From an uncultured cyanobacterium (lineage in GTDB: Bacteria > Cyanobacteriota > Cyanobacteriia > Cyanobacteriales > Microcystaceae), in contig CAWEDJ010000100.1 of assembly GCA_963807635.1 (NCBI GenBank), positions 1 to 45,358 of the forward strand: a stretch of DNA of 45,358 bases. Reading direction: 5' to 3'. This document shows, piece after piece, positions 33,001 through 45,358 of this stretch (position 1 is its first letter; every line of letters starts with the position of its first letter). A program made the position numbers.

Positions 33001-36000
33001 GGTCACAACGGGTGCGAAACATCGTATTCGTCAATGGTTTAAGCGATCGCGTCGGGATGAAAATATTCTTCGGGGTCGAGAACTATTAGAAAAAGATTTG
33101 GGGAAAAGTGGCTTAGATGCTTTGTTAAAGTCCGCTCCCATGCAAGCAGTGGCCGAACGCTGCAATTATCATTCTGTGGAAGACCTTTTGGCGGGCTTGG
33201 GTTACGGAGAGATTACCCAAACTCATGTTGTTAATCGTCTGAGAGAAATTACCGTCAAAGCCCAGCAACCTGAACCCCATACGATCCCGACGCTCAATCC
33301 TTCTTCGCCATCGACTCAATCGGGCAAAGGAACGAAGTCTCCCATCGCGGGCGTAGAGGGTCTGCTCTACCATATTGCAGGGTGTTGTCATCCGTTACCT
33401 GGTCAACCGATTTTGGGGGTAGTCACGCGGGGGGCAAAAGGGATTTCCATCCATCAACAGGGTTGCCCTAATGTGGAAGGGGTAGAAGGCGATCGCTTAA
33501 TTCCCGTGAAATGGAATCGTATTCATGACAATGGCCAGACCTATCCTGTGGATCTAATTATCGAAGCGTTGGACAGGGTGGGTGTTTTCAAGGATATTTT
33601 ATCTCGTTTAAGTGATCAAAATATTAATGTGCGAAATGCGGGAGTCAAGACAAACAGGGGCCAACCTGCCATCATTAGTTTACAAATTGATATCAAGGAT
33701 CATGAACAGTTGGAACACATCATGGCCAAGATTAAAAATATGGGGGATATTCTCCATCTTCGTCGGGTCAATACGGTAGATGTTGGCTAAAAAGAAGCAA
33801 AATTTTATTTTTTTTCGAGTTCTGCTAATTTCTTTTCTAACTGTTTAACTGTTTGATAGATTTCGGGTAAGCGTTTATAAATCGCTGAAGATTTTAGATA
33901 AATCTTATGGGGAACGGCGGGACTACTGGAGACGATTTCCCCAGGCGCGACATCGTTATGAATACCACTTTGGGCAAAGGCGATCGCCCCGTCTCCAATT
34001 TTTGCTTGATTGGCAACCCCGACTTGACCTGCGAGGATAACGCGATCGCCAATTTTTACTCCCCCTGCAAGACCGACCTGGGCCGCCATTGCACAATTTT
34101 TGCCGATCTGACAACCATGAGCAATATGTACCAAATTATCGAGTTTGGTATTTTTGCCGATGCGCGTTTCTCCGACGGCAGGACGATCCACCGTACTATT
34201 GCAACCAATTTCTACCCCGTCTTCGAGGACAACGTAACCCGATTGTTCCATTTTTAACCATCCATCGGCGGTCGGGACAAAGCCAAAACCTTCTGCCCCA
34301 ATCACCGCGCCACTGTGGATCACGCAATCATTTCCCATTTGTACCCGTTCATGGATCGTACAATTGGCGTGCAGAATCACGCGATCGCCAATTTTTGCCC
34401 CTGGATAAATCACCACATTGGGATGAATACAAACGCGATCGCCCAAAGTGACACCTGCTTCAATCACCACATGGGGGCCGATGTAAATATCTCGACCCAA
34501 AACCACTGAAGGATCGATCACGGCTGTAGGATGAATGCGGGGAGCGGGCTGAAAGGGTTGATAAAAAAGTCGAATCACTTGGGCAAAGAGTAGACGGGGA
34601 TCGGACGTTGCTATCCATGCGATTCCTTGGGCAGTTGCTTGGGCTTGTAGGGATTCATCAAGGGGTAAAATCAAGGCATTAGCGGCAGTTTTAGTGAGCA
34701 TTCCCGCAAATTTTGTCCCCTCAATATAGCTGAGTTGACCCAGGACGGCTTCATCAATGGCGGCAACTCCTTGAATTTCTGGATTATGGTCGGGTTGAGC
34801 CGTGAGACTATGGGCTTTGATAGAAGGACTTAATTTTTCAACTACTTCGCTAAATTGCATGGGGATTCCTTGATGTATCCAGATTTTTTCTTACTGAATT
34901 ATACGCTTTGGGCTTCCGTTATTAAAGAAAAATAGAGGCGATCGCAATTCGATAAACTCACTGACTGTAATTTGCCCCTATTCAAGGTTTTTGCAGATTT
35001 GTATCGGCTTTTTTACCAAGGATTGCCAATCAATGTAAAAGCACTCCAGTAATAAGGATGGCTTGTATCCATATTTTTAAAATTTCGACGTAGAGAGAGA
35101 GGAACGGAGATGCTCAAGGAGCGATTATTGTCCCCGATCAGCATCTGATTTTTTTGAAGGCTAACTTTTTTGTGGAGCAAGCTCAACTGGGCTTGACGTA
35201 GGGCATCCGCTTTTGTGGGAGCTTCTTTTAGTTGGTTATAAAAACTGGTCATTAATGCCAGGGTTCCTGCATCGCTGACGTACCACAAGCTACCTAACGC
35301 TGTTCTAACTCCCGTTTTGACCGCTAATCCCGCAAATCCTAATTCAGCGTCGGGATCTCCCAAGGCAGTTTGACAAGCCGACAGGGTTAAAAGATCAATG
35401 GGTCGGTCTAATCCTAAATTGGCAAATTCATCTAGAGTTAGTTTTTTGTCACTGAACACTACAAAGGAATTGTTGCGATCGCCAGACTTGAATTCTCCGT
35501 GAGTAGCGAGGTGAACAATACTAAACTGATTAGAATTGAGAGCATTTTTAAAATTTTCGACGGTAAAATCTTGGTTTAAAAATATCTGACCTGGCCAAAT
35601 ATTTTTTGCAATTTCTGTTAATTCAGTAGGTACGGCGGGTAAAGGATTTTGATCAGAAAAAGTATCCGCTCCCATCCCTAAAACCTTTGCTCCTCGACGA
35701 TCTTGACGAGTTGTATCCGTGAGAGAAAGACTCGGAATTAAACTAACACTATATTTTTCAATAATGTATTGCTGGCTATCCGCATCATAAAGAGCCGCTA
35801 GGGGGAGAGAACGCAAACCCTGATCCAATACAAAGGTAAGGTTAGTAATCTCCTGATTTTTAAGAGCATCCTCAATCGGGCTAATTAACCACTGATAAAG
35901 TTGCTTGGATTGGGGTAGAAAATCTTCTACAGGAGCAATATTCGTTAGATTTTGTTGTAGTTGTAAAGAAGCTTTCAGGACTTGCTCACGAGTAACACCT

Positions 36001-39000
36001 TGAATGGATAGGGGCAAAATATTTTGGTCGCTTACTAAGACCACCTCTAGCTGATCATCATTTTTTCTTTCGGTATTCGCAGTTGAATTACGGGCGCGAT
36101 TTAATTCCCACAGCGAACTATTTTCCGTCAAAGACTCAGATTTAGCAGAACGAAAGAAGACATAAATTAAGACAGATTTTACCCCAGTGACTTGTTGAAC
36201 ACTCGTTAAAATGCTTGGAATATTGTTTAAGGGAATTTCAGGTTTAGAAGGAAGACCTAACTGATTGCTATAATCTGTTGTAAAACTTTTATCGAGGGTA
36301 TCGACAACCGCTACTGTCCCTTTTTGTGAAGAGTATGTAGTTAAACTATTGGAAGAAGTGGATGATTTTGATGGAACTTCGGAAGAAGAAGCTGGAGTCT
36401 GAGATGTGGAATCCTGTTGATTAGGTGGATTTACAAAAATAGGTACTTGGCTATCGGTTATGGGAAGTGAAATTCCATTATTCAAGAAGATATTACCGTT
36501 GGTGTTATTGAAAAGATAGGATTGGGTGGGATTGATAGTATATTCTCCCGATGTAATGGCTCCTTGTGTTCCATTTGCGCTGGCATTCCCGACAGTAAAT
36601 GGAGTATTTCCATTACCTCCATTACGAATGGTAATTGTTCCTCCTCCTTGGGAACCTGCACTGGAAAGACTTGCTGTCACACCATTTTGATCAACAAATG
36701 TTTGTGTCGCTCGGAAAAATCGGGCCGTTGTTATGTCAATATTTCCTCCCACACCGTTGGTACTTTGAGCATTAATATAACCCACTTGAACATCGTTATC
36801 TGGATCGATAAAAACATTGCCTGCCTTCTCTCCAGAGGTCGTAATTGCTCCTGTTGTAATAGCGGTTTTGGCTTTTATGGTAATATCTCCGCCGCTTGTG
36901 GAACCTGCTGTATTTAAGTTGCCTGTGTTGATTGAACCCGAAGTTGCGGTTAGGGCTAACTTTGCCCCAGTTGCGCTCGTATTAGATAGATCAATGTTTT
37001 GGGTTTTAAGGTTCTCTCCCGCCTGTACATTGAGGGAATGACTACCTTGAATATTTCCTGTTACGTTAATATTTCCACTGTTTCCCGTACTAATTGTGGC
37101 AATATTCCCTAGAGTAATGTTGCCATTGATGCTTAGATTTTGTCCTTGAGTCGTCAAGTCTGCATTAAGATTTGTGATCCCATTTAGGGTAAGTTTTCCT
37201 TTGGTATTAATCGCTTGATTAACGGTAATCGTATTGTTGGCGGCGGCTAAATTGAGATCAAAATTAAACGCGATCGCCTCTGCAACCGTAATAGGACTGT
37301 TATCATTTCCAATCGTCACGCTACTAAAATTAGGCGAAATGAGACTTAATTCGGCGGTGGTCAGATCCAGCGCATTGGAATCGATTGTGTTTGTGCCTCC
37401 GATTAAAATATTGCGCCCCGAACTACTAGACTGAAAAGTAAGTTTTCCTGTTCCTTGAATAGAGCCTGTCCAATCAATTTTATCAGCAATAAAGGTAATA
37501 TTTTGATTGTTCGTTTTGACCGTGTCAGCAAAGACAATGCTAGATTTACCTGCATTAAAAGTTACATCGTTAGTAATAGTAACGGGATTCTCAAAATAAA
37601 GAGGAGTAGTCCCATTAGTCGTTAGATTAGCATTAAGATTAGTTATACCTTTAAAGGTGATTGAGGCATCATCTTGTCCGTCGATTGTGTTATTGACATT
37701 AATTGAGCCAGAAGGAGAACTTAAGGTAATAGAGTCATTAAAAATTACATTTCCTACTACATTAATCAAACTGCTACTATCGGAACGTCCAATAGTAATG
37801 GACTTAAATCCATTTTGAATAGTATTTAATTCGGAGCTATCAAGATTAAAGGTTCCTGTTGCACCATTACCATCACCAATATCAATAGATGTTGATGCGT
37901 TTAAAGGCTGTAAGAACAAATTACCTTTACCTTGAATTAAGGTTGATGACAAGTTGATTAAATTACCCGATATGATAATATCTCTTGAACTTTGCGGATT
38001 GCCAATGGGAGAGGTTGAATCAAAATTAGGAGCATTAAATCCCGCGATAGCAACTCCAAATTGAGAACCTTCTCCAATGATACTAATTGTTCCTGTCGCT
38101 ATTGGGTCATTACCGATTTTGGCACTAATAAATACGCCTCCTCCATTACTATTTGCCAAATCATTTTTTCCATCAATAGTGATCGTTCCTGTACTTGAAA
38201 TAGTTCCTGGGCTTATTACAATTCCTTCTACTATTCCATTACCATTAAAAGCATTATTAGATAATGCTTGTCCAGTTAAGGTAATATTTCCACTATTACT
38301 TATAATAGATGGTATCCCGTTTTTAAGTAATATGCCTTCACCTGCTGTATCTCCAGCTTTTCCTTTTAATGTAATATTGCCAGTGGTGGAGCTAATATTA
38401 GCATTGTTAATATAGATACCATCAAAACTTCCTGTCGTGGCAGTTGTTTGTTGATTGGCATTTAAGTTAATTGCACCGCTAGTGGTTGTAATACTGGAAC
38501 CCGAATTTAGCGTAATACTTCGAGCCGCATCAAATTGAATATTTCCTGTTCCTGTGTTGATAGCAGAATTGGCATTTAGAATAATATCTTGAACTGCATT
38601 AATGCTAAAATTATTCGTCGTCCCTGTAACATTAGATAGAGTGAGATTACTTCCAGTAAGAGTTGTATTACCTTTTAACGTGACTGCATCGTTATAGGCT
38701 TGACTTCCTGTAGTAGTAATATCGCCATTAATTTGACTACTTCCTTCTGCGTCAGTGGTTACACTAGCTGCCTTGACTGTGTTATTAAATAGGGTTGTGC
38801 TACCACTATTAACGCTTAAGTTTCCTAATGCTTTTGTATTTCCGACTGAATCATTAAAGCTGATATTTCCTGTGCCACTGTTGAGGGTTAAATCGTTGGC
38901 TTCTCCACTTTGGGAGTCTACTGTTTTGTTGAAAGTGATGTTGCTGTTAGTAGTCGTTAAGGTTACAGGGTTCTGAATTTCTACGGTATCGTTATAAGTT

Positions 39001-45000: not shown

Positions 45001-45358
45001 TGATTTCCTGTGGTTTTAATATTGCCATTAATTTGACTACTTCCTGTTGCATCAGTGGTTAAACTAGCTGCCTTGACTGTGTTATTAAATAGGGTTGTAC
45101 CACCACTATTAACACTTAAGTTTCCTAATGCTTTTGTATTTCCGACTGAATCATTAAAGTTGACATTTCCTGTGCCACTGTTGAGGGTTAAACCGTTGGC
45201 TTCTCCACTTTGGGAGTCTACTGTTTTGTTGAAAATGATGTTGCTGTTAGTAGTAGTTAAGGTTACAGGGTTTTGAATTTCTATGGTATCGTTATAAGTT
45301 TGGTTTCCTGTGGTTATAATATCGCCATTAATTTGACTGCTTCCTGTTGCATCAGTGG

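What a model noticed while it worked through the whole genome (the two positions that open the first line are those of the whole stretch)
35013..45356. Giant two-partner-secretion exoproteins that end in a CHAT (caspase-like) protease
g04472 (>3,447 aa, N-terminus lost at the contig end) is a filamentous-haemagglutinin-type repeat protein with 22 near-identical 100-aa repeats that ends in a CHAT protease domain with intact His/Cys dyad; paralogues are g02914+g02915 (TPS domain, then CHAT; C67:121503-127169) and g04681+g04682 behind a TpsB gene (C105:84501-93962). I read these as TpsA cargo proteins that carry a caspase-like protease to the cell surface or into neighbouring cells, as CdiA carries its C-terminal toxin. 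If true, two-partner secretion of CHAT proteases is an undescribed and very common cyanobacterial surface/contact system, of interest for colony formation and cell-cell conflict.
Evidence so far: pfam.tsv: CHAT 3150-3445 in g04472, 607-875 in g02915; TPS in g02914, g04681, g01576; ShlB/Omp85 (TpsB) in g04678, g01575, g03738. TRF: 300-bp unit x22.2, 96% alike, C100:38688-45358. g04472 res. 2117-2555 is 68% identical to g04682 res. 758-1167, whose gene row starts with the TPS domain. With the last 598 residues as query, 625 proteins of 1,900-6,000 aa match at E<=1e-20; of the 120 listed, 115 carry PF05860 (TPS/haemagglutination domain) and PF12770 (CHAT) in one chain, 5 CHAT without PF05860; all named ones are cyanobacterial. 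In 33 C-terminal domains (30 of those hits + 3 genes here) H3282, H3286 and C3328 are invariant. neighbours.tsv: TPS and CHAT on genes at most 2 apart in 710 of 1 [...]
(Added by a program. Inside this text positions count along the whole contig: contig position 1 is position 1 of the stretch shown here. "Call 12" and the like, gene names such as g00115 and contig names such as C1 are that model's own, and its searches are not shown. The text may have been shortened before it was handed on; [...] marks where a part breaks off. The agent that wrote the report below was given it as the finding of a first reader that could run no searches.)

Follow-up and report, generated by a model that had tools for sequence, protein, structure and literature searches.

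The report
Giant secreted filament ending in protease
This is the rear two thirds of one enormous cyanobacterial surface-filament gene that ends in a caspase-like protease, a common but unstudied build that looks like part of an envelope processing or signalling system, not a toxin injected into neighbours.

Summary
There is a 3,447-codon frame open at the contig end, about 22 near-identical 300-bp repeats, and a C-terminal CHAT domain with its His/Cys pair intact.

Two "paralogues" are misread. The TPS gene at the end of contig C105, behind a TpsB gene, is most likely the missing front of this same gene, giving at least about 5,200 aa. The C67 pair is a short TpsA followed by a separate exported TPR-CHAT gene.

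The CdiA-like toxin reading is not supported:
- No immunity-type gene lies downstream, here or behind 61 relatives.
- The C-terminus is not variable: 87 of 93 proteins sharing the beta-helix carry CHAT.
- There is no VENN-type motif.

The same CHAT module also occurs as a 450-540 aa protein with a Sec signal peptide. Relatives' genes are enriched beside DUF928 and CHASE2 sensor genes, the cassette that elsewhere holds TpsA plus exported TPR-CHAT.

My best reading, which is inferred and not shown, is a surface beta-helix filament whose tethered protease works in the producer's own envelope, in self-release or signalling.

This scan has met the TPS-CHAT build and the cassette before in other genomes. 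My paper searches found no study of it. The assembly has indel errors, and the repeat count is insecure.

The parts
35013..45356 (-). Rear part (3,447 codons plus stop) of a giant TpsA-CHAT exoprotein gene. The 5' end runs off the contig.
   Evidence: ORF list and translation. There is a single Cys in 3,447 residues, the catalytic C3328.
38688..45358 (-). Array of about 22 copies of a 300-bp (100-aa) unit, modelled as beta-helix. The copy number is insecure.
   Evidence: TRF: period 300, 22.2 copies, 96% matches. The unit matrix shows units 1-9 equal to units 13-21. The repeat DNA occurs nowhere else in the genome. The AF2 model of residues 1901-2400 is all-beta with pLDDT 73, and the best Foldseek hit is EtpA at E 0.013.
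36474..38687 (-). Non-repeat beta-helix (residues about 2224-2961), including a roughly 110-aa terminal segment conserved across the family.
   Evidence: The translation and alignment A1. The AF2 model shows strands in piece residues 1-112. This region is 68% identical to two copies of the same module in the C105 half.
36318..36473 (-). Ser/Thr/Pro-rich disordered linker (residues 2962-3013).
   Evidence: pLDDT is below 50 for piece residues 113-164. Length and sequence vary between relatives, being Pro/Thr-rich in the congener.
35016..36317 (-). CHAT protease module (residues 3014-3447): an N-terminal alpha/beta subdomain plus Pfam CHAT at 35022-35909. H3282 is at 35511-35513, H3286 at 35499-35501 and C3328 at 35373-35375.
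   Evidence: Pfam hit. Invariant residues. The AF2 model has mostly pLDDT above 80. Foldseek hits are Csx29 TPR-CHAT at E 5e-14, separase, SAVED-CHAT, the periplasmic DdvA TPR-CHAT and gingipain.
33805..34860 (-). Context only: the lpxD-like gene directly downstream, 152 bp after the stop. It is not an immunity-type gene.
   Evidence: Pfam LpxD plus Hexapep. Spacing.

Best explanation
SHOWN.
- g04472 is the rear 3,447 residues of a two-partner-secretion (type Vb) exoprotein. Its layout is beta-helix with an expanded 100-aa repeat, then a disordered S/T/P linker, then a 434-aa CHAT (clan CD, caspase/separase-like) module with His/Cys intact.

WELL SUPPORTED.
- Its front (signal peptide, TPS domain, about 1,570 more residues) is the gene that runs off the end of contig C105, behind a TpsB gene. 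That makes one protein of at least about 5,200 aa.

INFERRED.
- TpsB exports the TPS end first, and the beta-helix folds outside as a long filament.
- The CHAT module emerges last and is joined by a flexible tether. It acts in the producer's own envelope (the periplasm or the inner face of the outer membrane), not as a cargo toxin.
- Its likely job is proteolytic processing. It either cuts its own tether to release the filament, or cuts envelope partners such as DUF928 proteins or CHASE2 receptors in the family's wider gene set. Events at the filament would then be coupled to release or to second-messenger signalling.
- The fusion is a Rosetta-stone form of the cyanobacterial cassette 'TpsA + exported TPR-CHAT + DUF928 + CHASE2 sensor'.
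For: IDENTITY AND ANATOMY.

JOIN OF C105 AND C100.
- A complete 2,124-aa congener protein matches C105:88712-89257 (75%) and 89259-91148 (54%). It matches the last 273 bases of C105 with its residues 1060-1149, then the first codons of the C100 frame with residues 1135-1436, and the C100 rear at 58%.
- Its adjacent TpsB is 66% identical to the C105 TpsB.
- In partial protein P0122, the stretch that is 84% identical to the last 63 codons of C105 runs directly into a C100-type repeat unit.
- The genome has exactly one TPS gene lacking a rear and one beta-helix-CHAT lacking a front.

THE MODULE IS EXTRACYTOPLASMIC.
- The module occurs alone as 446-540 aa proteins. Of 12 inspected, 11 start with Sec-type signal peptides.
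- These stand-alone forms nest inside the fused clade on a 110-row tree.
- g04472 has one Cys in 3,447 residues, and 56 of 57 fused modules have exactly one.

LINK TO THE CASSETTE.
- Pfam-verified CHASE2 lies in 11 of 80 loci and DUF928 in 12 of 80 loci around relatives. About 1.4 loci would be expected from 167 CHASE2 matches in 154.5 Mb.
- In a DUF928-centred metagenome sample, 42 loci were 8 kb or longer. CHASE2 was in 21, TPS in 12 and CHAT in 10.
- In the 7 relatives' regions inspected, all 7 hold an exported TPR-CHAT beside DUF928 and CHASE2, with signal peptides on both TPR-CHAT and DUF928. In 3 of them (L120, L122, L126) the row runs co-directionally TpsA -> TPR-CHAT -> DUF928 -> CHASE2.
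- CHAT-less TpsAs end in an invariant TGRGGLP plus two Cys (11 of 11 complete ones). None of the 57 fused ORFs >1,000 aa's loci has GRGGLP; a looser pattern hits once, inside a CHAT module. Nor do 4 fused ORFs of the DUF928 sample. The fused CHAT therefore replaces that tail.

PRECEDENTS.
- The TpsA adhesin CdrA is released when periplasmic LapG cuts its C-terminal tail, and FhaB is matured by SphB1 (passages of PMC5422565).
- The periplasmic TPR-CHAT of DdvA sits on a flexible linker that it is proposed to cut (passages of PMC11506125).
Against: - Nothing here locates the CHAT module. A linker-tethered domain could equally be pulled through TpsB and displayed outside, and the single-Cys composition fits that too.
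- This particular locus has no DUF928 or CHASE2 gene next to it. LpxD and SpoT lie downstream, and DUF3747, TpsB and two TPR genes lie upstream. Only 11-12 of 80 related loci do.
- TpsB was found inside the fetched DNA in only 5 of 80 loci.
- No cleavage site is identified in the linker, and no substrate is known.
- The C105-C100 join has no DNA overlap. Public contigs laid on the C105 end were short pieces of relatives and told nothing.
- The TPS domain on C105 carries a +1 frameshift.
Confidence: 0.5

Rival explanations
1. Extracellular protease on a stalk. The whole chain, CHAT included, passes through TpsB. The protease is displayed far from the cell on the beta-helix. There it cuts outside substrates such as matrix or sheath proteins, neighbours' surface proteins or food proteins.
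For: - The domain order and flexible linker suit display.
- A single Cys in the whole chain fits passage in an unfolded state.
- Gingipain, an extracellular clan CD protease, is among the fold matches.
- From recall, not from a call here: a TPS-secreted protease is known (LepA/LepB of Pseudomonas).
- An earlier scan note read a relative this way.
Against: - In the TpsA proteins studied so far, the C-terminus stays periplasmic at least for a time (passages of PMC5422565).
- Stand-alone forms of the module have only a Sec signal, which by default ends in the periplasm.
- The genomic partners DUF928 and CHASE2 are periplasm-facing.
- A 434-aa alpha/beta domain may fold before it can pass TpsB. 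This point is inference.
Confidence: 0.27
2. CdiA-like contact weapon. The CHAT domain is cleaved off and delivered into neighbouring cells as a toxin.
For: - The effector domain is C-terminal on a TpsA, and the gene lies behind a TpsB.
- Many paralogues occur per genome, and tandem copies occur in 6 of 80 loci.
Against: - No immunity-like ORF exists here (lpxD follows at 152 bp) or behind 61 relatives. The largest downstream cluster is simply another TpsA.
- The C-terminus is constant: 87 of 93 share CHAT, at 38-81% identity across the family.
- There is no VENN-type motif and no FHA-1/FHA-2 Pfam repeats.
- Sec-exported stand-alone versions exist without partners.
Confidence: 0.08
3. Dead or misassembled gene. 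The frameshift in the TPS domain and the looped repeat array would mean that no such protein is made in this organism.
For: - A +1 frameshift lies at about C105:89258.
- Units 1-9 repeat as units 13-21.
- The gene is split over two contig ends with no overlap.
Against: - Three housekeeping genes in this same 45-kb window are also split into two overlapping frames. They are the E1 dehydrogenase at 29413-30448, gcpE at 13513-14738 and the ARC6/Ftn2-type division gene at 26856-29196. Indel errors of the assembly are therefore the likelier cause.
- A 10.3-kb frame without a stop in 41% G+C DNA would not survive long without selection.
- Orthologues in congeners are intact.
Confidence: 0.08

Closest known systems
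CdrA/CdrB with LapG (Pseudomonas aeruginosa) and FhaB/FhaC with SphB1 (Bordetella): TpsA adhesins matured or released by proteolysis of a periplasmic C-terminal part
   Same: A TPS domain plus TpsB partner, a beta-helix filament, and a C-terminal part that is the target of regulated proteolysis (passages of PMC5422565).
   Different: In those systems the protease is a separate protein (a LapG-type Cys protease or a subtilisin autotransporter). Here a caspase-like protease is part of the TpsA chain itself. No cleavage has been shown.
CdiA/CdiB/CdiI contact-dependent inhibition
   Same: A giant TpsA with a functional domain at the extreme C-terminus.
   Different: There is no immunity gene, no variable C-terminus, no VENN boundary and no FHA-1/FHA-2 repeats.
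DdvA of Myxococcus xanthus: periplasmic TPR-CHAT on a flexible linker (PDB 8rot)
   Same: An extracytoplasmic CHAT fold with a His/Cys dyad, tethered by a long flexible linker. Self-cleavage of the tether is proposed. It is a fold match.
   Different: DdvA is an inner-membrane anti-sigma factor with TPRs. Here the tether leads to a secreted beta-helix and there are no TPRs.
Csx29 (Craspase TPR-CHAT) and separase
   Same: These are the best structural matches of the module: Foldseek E 5e-14 for Csx29 and about 1e-7 for separase.
   Different: Both are cytoplasmic, TPR- or ARM-scaffolded and regulated by partner binding. Sequence identity is 9-14%. A sequence search of the PDB found nothing.
Cyanobacterial cassette TpsA / exported TPR-CHAT / DUF928 / CHASE2 sensor
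   Same: The same gene partners appear around 11-12 of 80 relatives' loci. The fused protein takes the place of the TpsA plus TPR-CHAT pair.
   Different: - The CHAT of fused proteins is a sister clade to the cassette's TPR-CHAT.
- The fused TpsA lacks the TGRGGLP/two-Cys tail.
- This locus itself has no DUF928 or CHASE2 gene.
EtpA and HMW1 TpsA adhesins
   Same: A beta-helical passenger. EtpA is the best hit of the repeat model.
   Different: The match is weak (E 0.013). Those adhesins carry no protease domain.

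Membership tests
TpsA exoprotein of two-partner (type Vb) secretion | N-terminal TPS domain (PF05860) behind a Sec signal peptide | tested here: inconclusive
   Neither is in the window, because the front is lost at the contig end. Both are present in the probable front half: C105:88817-89254 scores E 1.6e-36 over profile positions 1-148 and is then cut by a +1 frameshift. A signal-peptide-like start, MTISTLL...LLAQV, is seen by eye. The link to g04472 rests on collinearity with relatives.
TpsA exoprotein of two-partner (type Vb) secretion | Cognate TpsB transporter (ShlB/FhaC barrel with POTRA) | tested here: met
   C105:84447-86318 has ShlB at E 3e-30 plus POTRA_2 and Omp85. 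It is 66% identical to the TpsB next to the congener's complete TpsA-CHAT. Two TPR genes lie between it and the TPS gene.
TpsA exoprotein of two-partner (type Vb) secretion | Beta-helical passenger | tested here: met
   The AF2 models are all-beta. Fold hits are beta-helix passengers, with EtpA best at E 0.013, which is weak. No Pfam FHA-repeat family matches.
TpsA exoprotein of two-partner (type Vb) secretion | Secretion across the outer membrane through TpsB | not testable with these tools
   This needs an experiment.
CHAT / clan CD cysteine protease | Match to PF12770 above the curated cut-off | tested here: met
   244.9 bits against a cut-off of 24, covering profile positions 4-289 of 289.
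CHAT / clan CD cysteine protease | Catalytic His (in ...THG) and Cys (in ...SAC...) conserved | tested here: met
   H3286 (with H3282) and C3328 are invariant in 21 of 21 sequences. The same positions are invariant in 9 TPR-CHAT proteins.
CHAT / clan CD cysteine protease | Caspase/separase-type fold | tested here: met
   Foldseek gives Csx29 at E 5e-14, then separase, SAVED-CHAT, DdvA and gingipain, on a model with pLDDT 79.
CHAT / clan CD cysteine protease | Peptidase activity and its specificity | not testable with these tools
   This needs an enzyme assay.
CdiA-type polymorphic toxin system | Immunity gene directly downstream of the toxin end | tested here: not met
   lpxD follows at 152 bp, then spoT. 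No conserved downstream ORF family exists behind 61 fused relatives.
CdiA-type polymorphic toxin system | Variable C-terminal domains on a conserved shaft, after a VENN-type motif | tested here: not met
   87 of 93 proteins sharing residues 2300-2960 carry CHAT. Of the 6 without it, 4 are labelled partial, 1 fills its whole contig and 1 is unexplained. No VENN-like motif is present.
TpsA / CHAT / DUF928 / CHASE2 envelope cassette | DUF928 and CHASE2 genes beside the TpsA and CHAT genes | tested here: not met
   Neither lies on C100 or on the end of C105. Both are present around 11-12 of 80 relatives. In this genome they occur at C39: TpsB-TpsA-EAL-CHASE2-DUF928. The family is linked to the cassette, but this locus is not a copy of it.

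The most novel reading that the evidence does not exclude
TpsA-CHAT proteins, and the unfused TpsA plus exported TPR-CHAT pairs, would be the input arm of an outside-in proteolytic signalling pathway.
- A surface filament reports contact or damage.
- Its envelope-located, Arg-directed CHAT protease then cuts short 'RG' motifs. Candidates are the invariant TGRGGLP tail of CHAT-less TpsAs and the 'P.RG.P..T.GGG(T/S)RG' N-terminus of DUF928.
- The product is what CHASE2 receptors sense.
- The receptors would switch cAMP/cGMP, c-di-GMP, kinase, TIR or caspase outputs.

This would name the long-unknown ligand source of CHASE2.
Probability: 0.18. Interest if true: 0.85.

Novelty: new variant of a known kind. 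Interest (0 to 1): 0.6.

Why it matters
Two-partner secretion is known for adhesins, cytolysins and CdiA toxins. CHAT proteases are known from separase, Craspase and HetF.

A TpsA that carries its own caspase-like protease is a build shared by hundreds to thousands of cyanobacterial proteins, often several per genome. My searches of the held library found no study of it.

If the protease acts on its own tether or on envelope partners, it would be a self-contained way to release a surface filament or to read its state. That bears on aggregation, mats, sheath formation and motility in filamentous cyanobacteria.

The link to DUF928 and CHASE2 genes offers a concrete handle on what CHASE2 sensors detect, which is still unknown.

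For this window itself the gain is modest. It corrects the gene model (one gene over two contigs), rejects the toxin analogy, and flags an error-prone assembly.

Tried and rejected
- DNA overlap between the C105 end and the C100 end: none. The repeat unit was not found on any other contig.
- Public runs for the last 2 kb of C105: only small shares (0.19 or less). Laying 4 runs gave short contigs of relatives with loose ends and nothing that bridges. This is uninformative.
The idea that the two bind therefore stays untested.
- Are the two TPR genes between TpsB and TpsA on C105 the missing TPR half of a TPR-CHAT? hhalign found only generic TPR likeness, probability 8% and 13%. Rejected.
- My first CHASE2 profile was built from a mixed cluster and also hit caspase-like domains. 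I replaced it with Pfam checks and a clean profile. One of the 12 first hits (L067) turned out to be a PAS-cyclase, not CHASE2.
- A sequence search of the PDB with the profile found 0 hits.
- The DUF928 alignment A2 was too diverged for a collection scan. The narrower alignment A3 worked.
- Paper searches:
  - 'CHAT domain' + 'two-partner secretion': 0 papers.
  - 'CHAT domain' + 'filamentous hemagglutinin': 0.
  - 'CHAT domain' + haemagglutin + cyanobacteri: 1 preprint, with a passing remark only.
  - 'polymorphic toxin' + CHAT + caspase + filamentous: 2 papers, neither on this build.
  - TPS + cyanobacteri + TpsA: 13 papers, of which 12 were listed; none is on this build.
  - 'CHAT domain' + cyanobacteri + 'signal peptide': 3 papers, unrelated.
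  - One whole-word search was swamped by choline acetyltransferase.
  - 'CHASE2' + 'CHAT domain': 0.
- A Cys-count contrast between fused and stand-alone modules (56 of 57 with one Cys, against 9 of 14 with two) is too soft to place the domain.

Full report
**What is in the window.** The window is a whole contig (G000:C100, 45,358 bp) of a 4.03-Mb, 107-contig, 41% G+C cyanobacterial assembly.
- On the minus strand, a frame of 3,447 codons runs from the contig end to a stop at 35013-35015.
- Its first 2,223 residues or so are 100-aa units encoded by a 300-bp tandem array: 22.2 copies, 96% matches, no indels.
- The unit DNA occurs nowhere else in the genome.
- A unit-by-unit matrix shows that units 1-9 recur as units 13-21 with 0-2 mismatches per 300 nt, and several units are identical. 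The array is therefore either a recent 3.6-kb higher-order duplication or an assembly loop, and '22 copies' should not be relied on.
- Pfam finds only CHAT in the last 1,248 residues (E 1.5e-72, residues 3150-3445).
- No FHA-repeat family matches the repeats or the C105 half.
- A single-sequence AlphaFold model of residues 1901-2400 is all-beta (pLDDT 73). Its best but weak fold match is the TpsA adhesin EtpA (E 0.013), followed by other beta-helix passengers.

**The missing front is on contig C105.** The genome has three TPS domains (C39, C67, C105), three ShlB-type TpsB genes (C105, C79, C39), and CHAT at C100, C67, C42 and C7.
- C105 carries TpsB (84447-86318), two TPR genes, a TPS frame (88628-89275) with a signal-peptide-like start, a +1 frameshift, and then a 1,580-codon frame that runs off the contig end.
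- A complete 2,124-aa TpsA-CHAT protein of a congener (G001) matches, in order:
  - C105:88712-89257 at 75%;
  - C105:89259-91148 at 54%;
  - the last 273 bases of C105, with its residues 1060-1149;
  - the first codons of the C100 frame, with residues 1135-1436;
  - the C100 rear at 58%.
- Its neighbouring TpsB is 66% identical to the C105 TpsB.
- In the partial metagenome protein P0122, a stretch 84% identical to the last 63 codons of C105 continues directly into a C100-type repeat unit. Its rear is 72% identical to g04472.
- I therefore read g04681/g04682 and g04472 as one gene of at least about 5,200 codons. There is no DNA overlap between the ends, and public contigs did not bridge them, so this is strongly supported but not proven.

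**The C67 'paralogue' is a gene pair.** C67 holds a complete 832-aa TpsA. After a gap with a hairpin comes a separate 956-codon frame with a hydrophobic N-terminus, TPR repeats and CHAT. On a tree of 110 CHAT cores, this protein sits with the cassette-type TPR-CHAT clade (16 rows, support 96). All fused proteins fall in the sister clade (93 rows, support 92; FastTree, midpoint root, local supports only).

**Frameshifts are probably assembly errors.** In this same window, three housekeeping genes are each split into two overlapping frames:
- an E1 dehydrogenase (29413-30048 and 29984-30448, Pfam profile halves 2-166 and 167-299);
- gcpE (14127-14738 and 13513-14178, halves 1-134 and 138-342);
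- the ARC6/Ftn2-type division gene (28186-29196 and 26856-28301).

The frameshift in the TPS domain is thus weak evidence for a dead gene. The intact 10.3-kb frame argues for a live one.

**Anatomy of the rear.** An alignment of 21 C-terminal pieces (38-81% identical) shows three parts:
- a conserved final beta-helix segment;
- a linker of variable length and composition (Ser/Thr/Pro-rich here, Pro/Thr-rich in the congener);
- a conserved module of about 434 aa, with H3282, H3286 and C3328 invariant and a terminal HPYYW..F..IG.PW.

The AlphaFold model (pLDDT 79, pTM 0.70) gives strands for residues 2850-2961, disorder for 2962-3013 and a confident alpha/beta module for 3014-3447. Foldseek matches Csx29 TPR-CHAT (E 5e-14), separase, SAVED-CHAT, the periplasmic TPR-CHAT of DdvA, and gingipain. 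A sequence search of the PDB found nothing. The whole 3,447-residue chain has a single Cys, the catalytic one.

**The family.**
- 29 of 31 related genomes have matches, with up to 28 per genome.
- In 80 loci from named cyanobacterial genomes (one labelled Sericytochromatia):
  - 51 hold TPS-to-CHAT in one frame (57 frames, 823-3,976 aa, median 1,580);
  - 10 are cut by contig ends;
  - 7 are 'other', of which 5 look frameshift-split;
  - 6 have tandem copies;
  - TpsB lies inside the fetched DNA in only 5. Only 2 of the 41 genes with at least 2.5 kb of upstream DNA have one just upstream.
- Thirteen loci hold the module alone in frames under 600 aa. Of 12 inspected (446-540 aa), 11 begin with Sec-type signal peptides. 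Their main group (9 rows) nests inside the fused clade. The module is therefore an exported protease in its own right.

**Tests of the CdiA-like reading.**
- Downstream of g04472 lie lpxD (152 bp away) and spoT.
- Behind 61 fused relatives there is no conserved small ORF. The largest downstream cluster is another TpsA.
- Of 93 long proteins sharing the non-repeat beta-helix (residues 2300-2960), 87 carry CHAT. The six without comprise four labelled partial, one filling its whole 7.5-kb contig, and one unexplained.
- No VENN-type motif is present.

These are the defining features of CDI systems, and none is met.

**An unexpected neighbourhood.** The downstream clusters that did recur were CHASE2 sensors and DUF928 proteins.
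- After a faulty first profile, Pfam confirmed CHASE2 in 11 of 80 loci. Their outputs were cyclase, histidine kinase, none, an N-terminal CHAT (2) or TIR (1). My own profile found DUF928 in 12 of 80; Pfam confirmed the 10 of those I scanned, and L061 and L072 were not scanned.
- The background is 167 CHASE2 matches in 31 genomes and 154.5 Mb, about 1.1 per Mb. That gives roughly 1.4 of 80 loci expected. Relatives are not independent, so this is an order-of-magnitude contrast.
- Seven regions of relatives show exported TPR-CHAT, DUF928 and CHASE2 in a row. Three of them have a TpsA gene in front, all co-directional. Both TPR-CHAT and DUF928 carry signal peptides.
- A DUF928-centred metagenome sample, chosen without regard to CHAT, gave 42 loci of 8 kb or more. 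CHASE2 was in 21, TPS in 12, CHAT in 10 and TpsB in 3. The sample included DUF928 next to fused TpsA-CHAT genes.
- CHAT-less TpsAs of this cassette end in an invariant TGRGGLP and two invariant Cys. GRGGLP is in 11 of 11 complete ones. It is absent from all 57 fused ORFs >1,000 aa's loci and from 4 fused ORFs of the DUF928 sample; a looser pattern hits once, inside a CHAT module. It is also absent from g04472.
- DUF928 proteins carry a related Arg/Gly-rich motif just after the signal peptide. A strict pattern matched 49 of 102.
- In this genome, C39 holds TpsB-TpsA-EAL-CHASE2-DUF928 and C67 holds TpsA plus TPR-CHAT. The C105/C100 locus itself has neither DUF928 nor CHASE2.

**How it most likely works.**
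- Shown: the domain order, the intact dyad, the fold, the tether, the TpsB partner, the exported nature of the module and the gene-neighbourhood statistics.
- Inferred: TpsB exports the chain N-terminus first and the beta-helix folds outside. The CHAT module, the last part to arrive, stays in or near the periplasm. There it cuts its own tether or envelope partners.
- Reasons for this inference:
  - Every partner in the wider gene set faces the periplasm.
  - The stand-alone form has only a Sec signal.
  - Studied TpsAs keep their C-terminus periplasmic for a time. Examples are CdrA released by LapG and FhaB matured by SphB1 (passages of the review PMC5422565).
  - The periplasmic TPR-CHAT of DdvA sits on a linker that it is proposed, not shown, to cut (passages of PMC11506125).
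- The main rival is true surface display of the protease, which nothing here excludes.
- I put about 0.5 on the envelope-processing reading, 0.27 on the stalk protease, 0.08 on a CdiA-like weapon and 0.08 on a dead gene.

**Known or new.**
- My ten searches of the held library found no paper on TPS-CHAT proteins. One Trichodesmium preprint lists both annotations in passing. One paper on WD40 proteins notes a CHASE2-DUF928 neighbourhood (passage of PMC5587647).
- I recall, but did not see, that the paper defining CHAT (Aravind and Koonin 2002) surveys its architectures. It is not in the library, so I cannot say whether it mentions this fusion.
- After I had found the cassette, I looked up this scan's own notes. 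They report the same cassette in six other genomes. They also report the TPS-CHAT build in two: one said to be slr1753 of Synechocystis, and one with an N-terminal glycosyltransferase. So the scan has seen this before on other DNA.
- What this window adds:
  - a giant repeat-expanded member;
  - the corrected gene model;
  - explicit negative tests of the toxin analogy;
  - the tree;
  - the tail-motif contrast that ties fused and unfused forms together.

Noticed in passing
window 13513-14738, 26856-29196, 29413-30448: Three housekeeping genes are each split into two overlapping frames whose Pfam matches are complementary halves: gcpE/ispG, an ARC6/Ftn2-type division gene and a pyruvate-dehydrogenase-type E1 component. 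This points to indel errors in the assembly.
   Followed up: partly
G000:C105:86363-88683 (L015:6364-8684): Two TPR-repeat genes sit between TpsB and the TPS gene. One has membrane-like segments and the other has a signal peptide. They show only generic TPR likeness to cassette TPR-CHAT proteins. The congener's locus has no such genes there.
   Followed up: partly
G000:C39:15875-24048 (L017): TpsB, an 839-aa TpsA, an EAL protein, a CHASE2(-GGDEF) frame and DUF928 lie together. This is a CHAT-less copy of the envelope cassette in this genome. The CHASE2 frame looks truncated.
   Followed up: partly
A5 alignment; L133, L140, L146, L151, L166, L169, L170: CHAT-less TpsA proteins of the cassette end in an invariant TGRGGLP about 90 residues from the C-terminus, flanked by two invariant Cys. 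This recalls the Cys-dependent tethers of HMW1 and CdrA (recalled, not from a call). It is absent from every fused TpsA-CHAT examined.
   Followed up: partly
A2 alignment; DUF928 frames in L120-L206: DUF928 proteins carry, right after the signal peptide, a conserved motif of the type F.PP.RG.P..T.GGG(T/S)RG..C. Some have it in 2-5 tandem copies (L123, L126). It is a candidate processing site or released peptide.
   Followed up: partly
L072:12295-14868, L118:6282-8699, L116:2592-5744: Some CHASE2 receptors next to TpsA-CHAT genes carry a second, N-terminal CHAT domain or three TIR domains in place of a cyclase or kinase output.
   Followed up: no
P0066 and 13 other proteins; L040, L048, L056, L061, L075, L093, L110: A family-2 glycosyltransferase domain (residues 6-163 in P0066) lies in frame ahead of the TPS domain (310-505) of TpsA-CHAT proteins. 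This is odd for a Sec/TpsB substrate. An earlier scan note describes the same thing.
   Followed up: partly
G000:C7:32748-36387 (L019): A DUF1822 gene is followed by an 834-aa protein with a weak CHAT match and a periplasmic-binding-protein domain. It also scored on a caspase-like part of my first mixed profile.
   Followed up: no
G000:C67:124200-124330: The TPR-CHAT frame on C67 has no start codon near its hydrophobic N-terminus. An ATG-led frame just upstream is offset by one base within T-runs. This is probably another indel error.
   Followed up: no
L009:10092-12945 (G001:C42): Downstream of the congener's TpsA-CHAT gene lie two paralogous frames (496 and 367 aa, 45% identical) with no Pfam match. 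They are not seen at the locus studied here.
   Followed up: no
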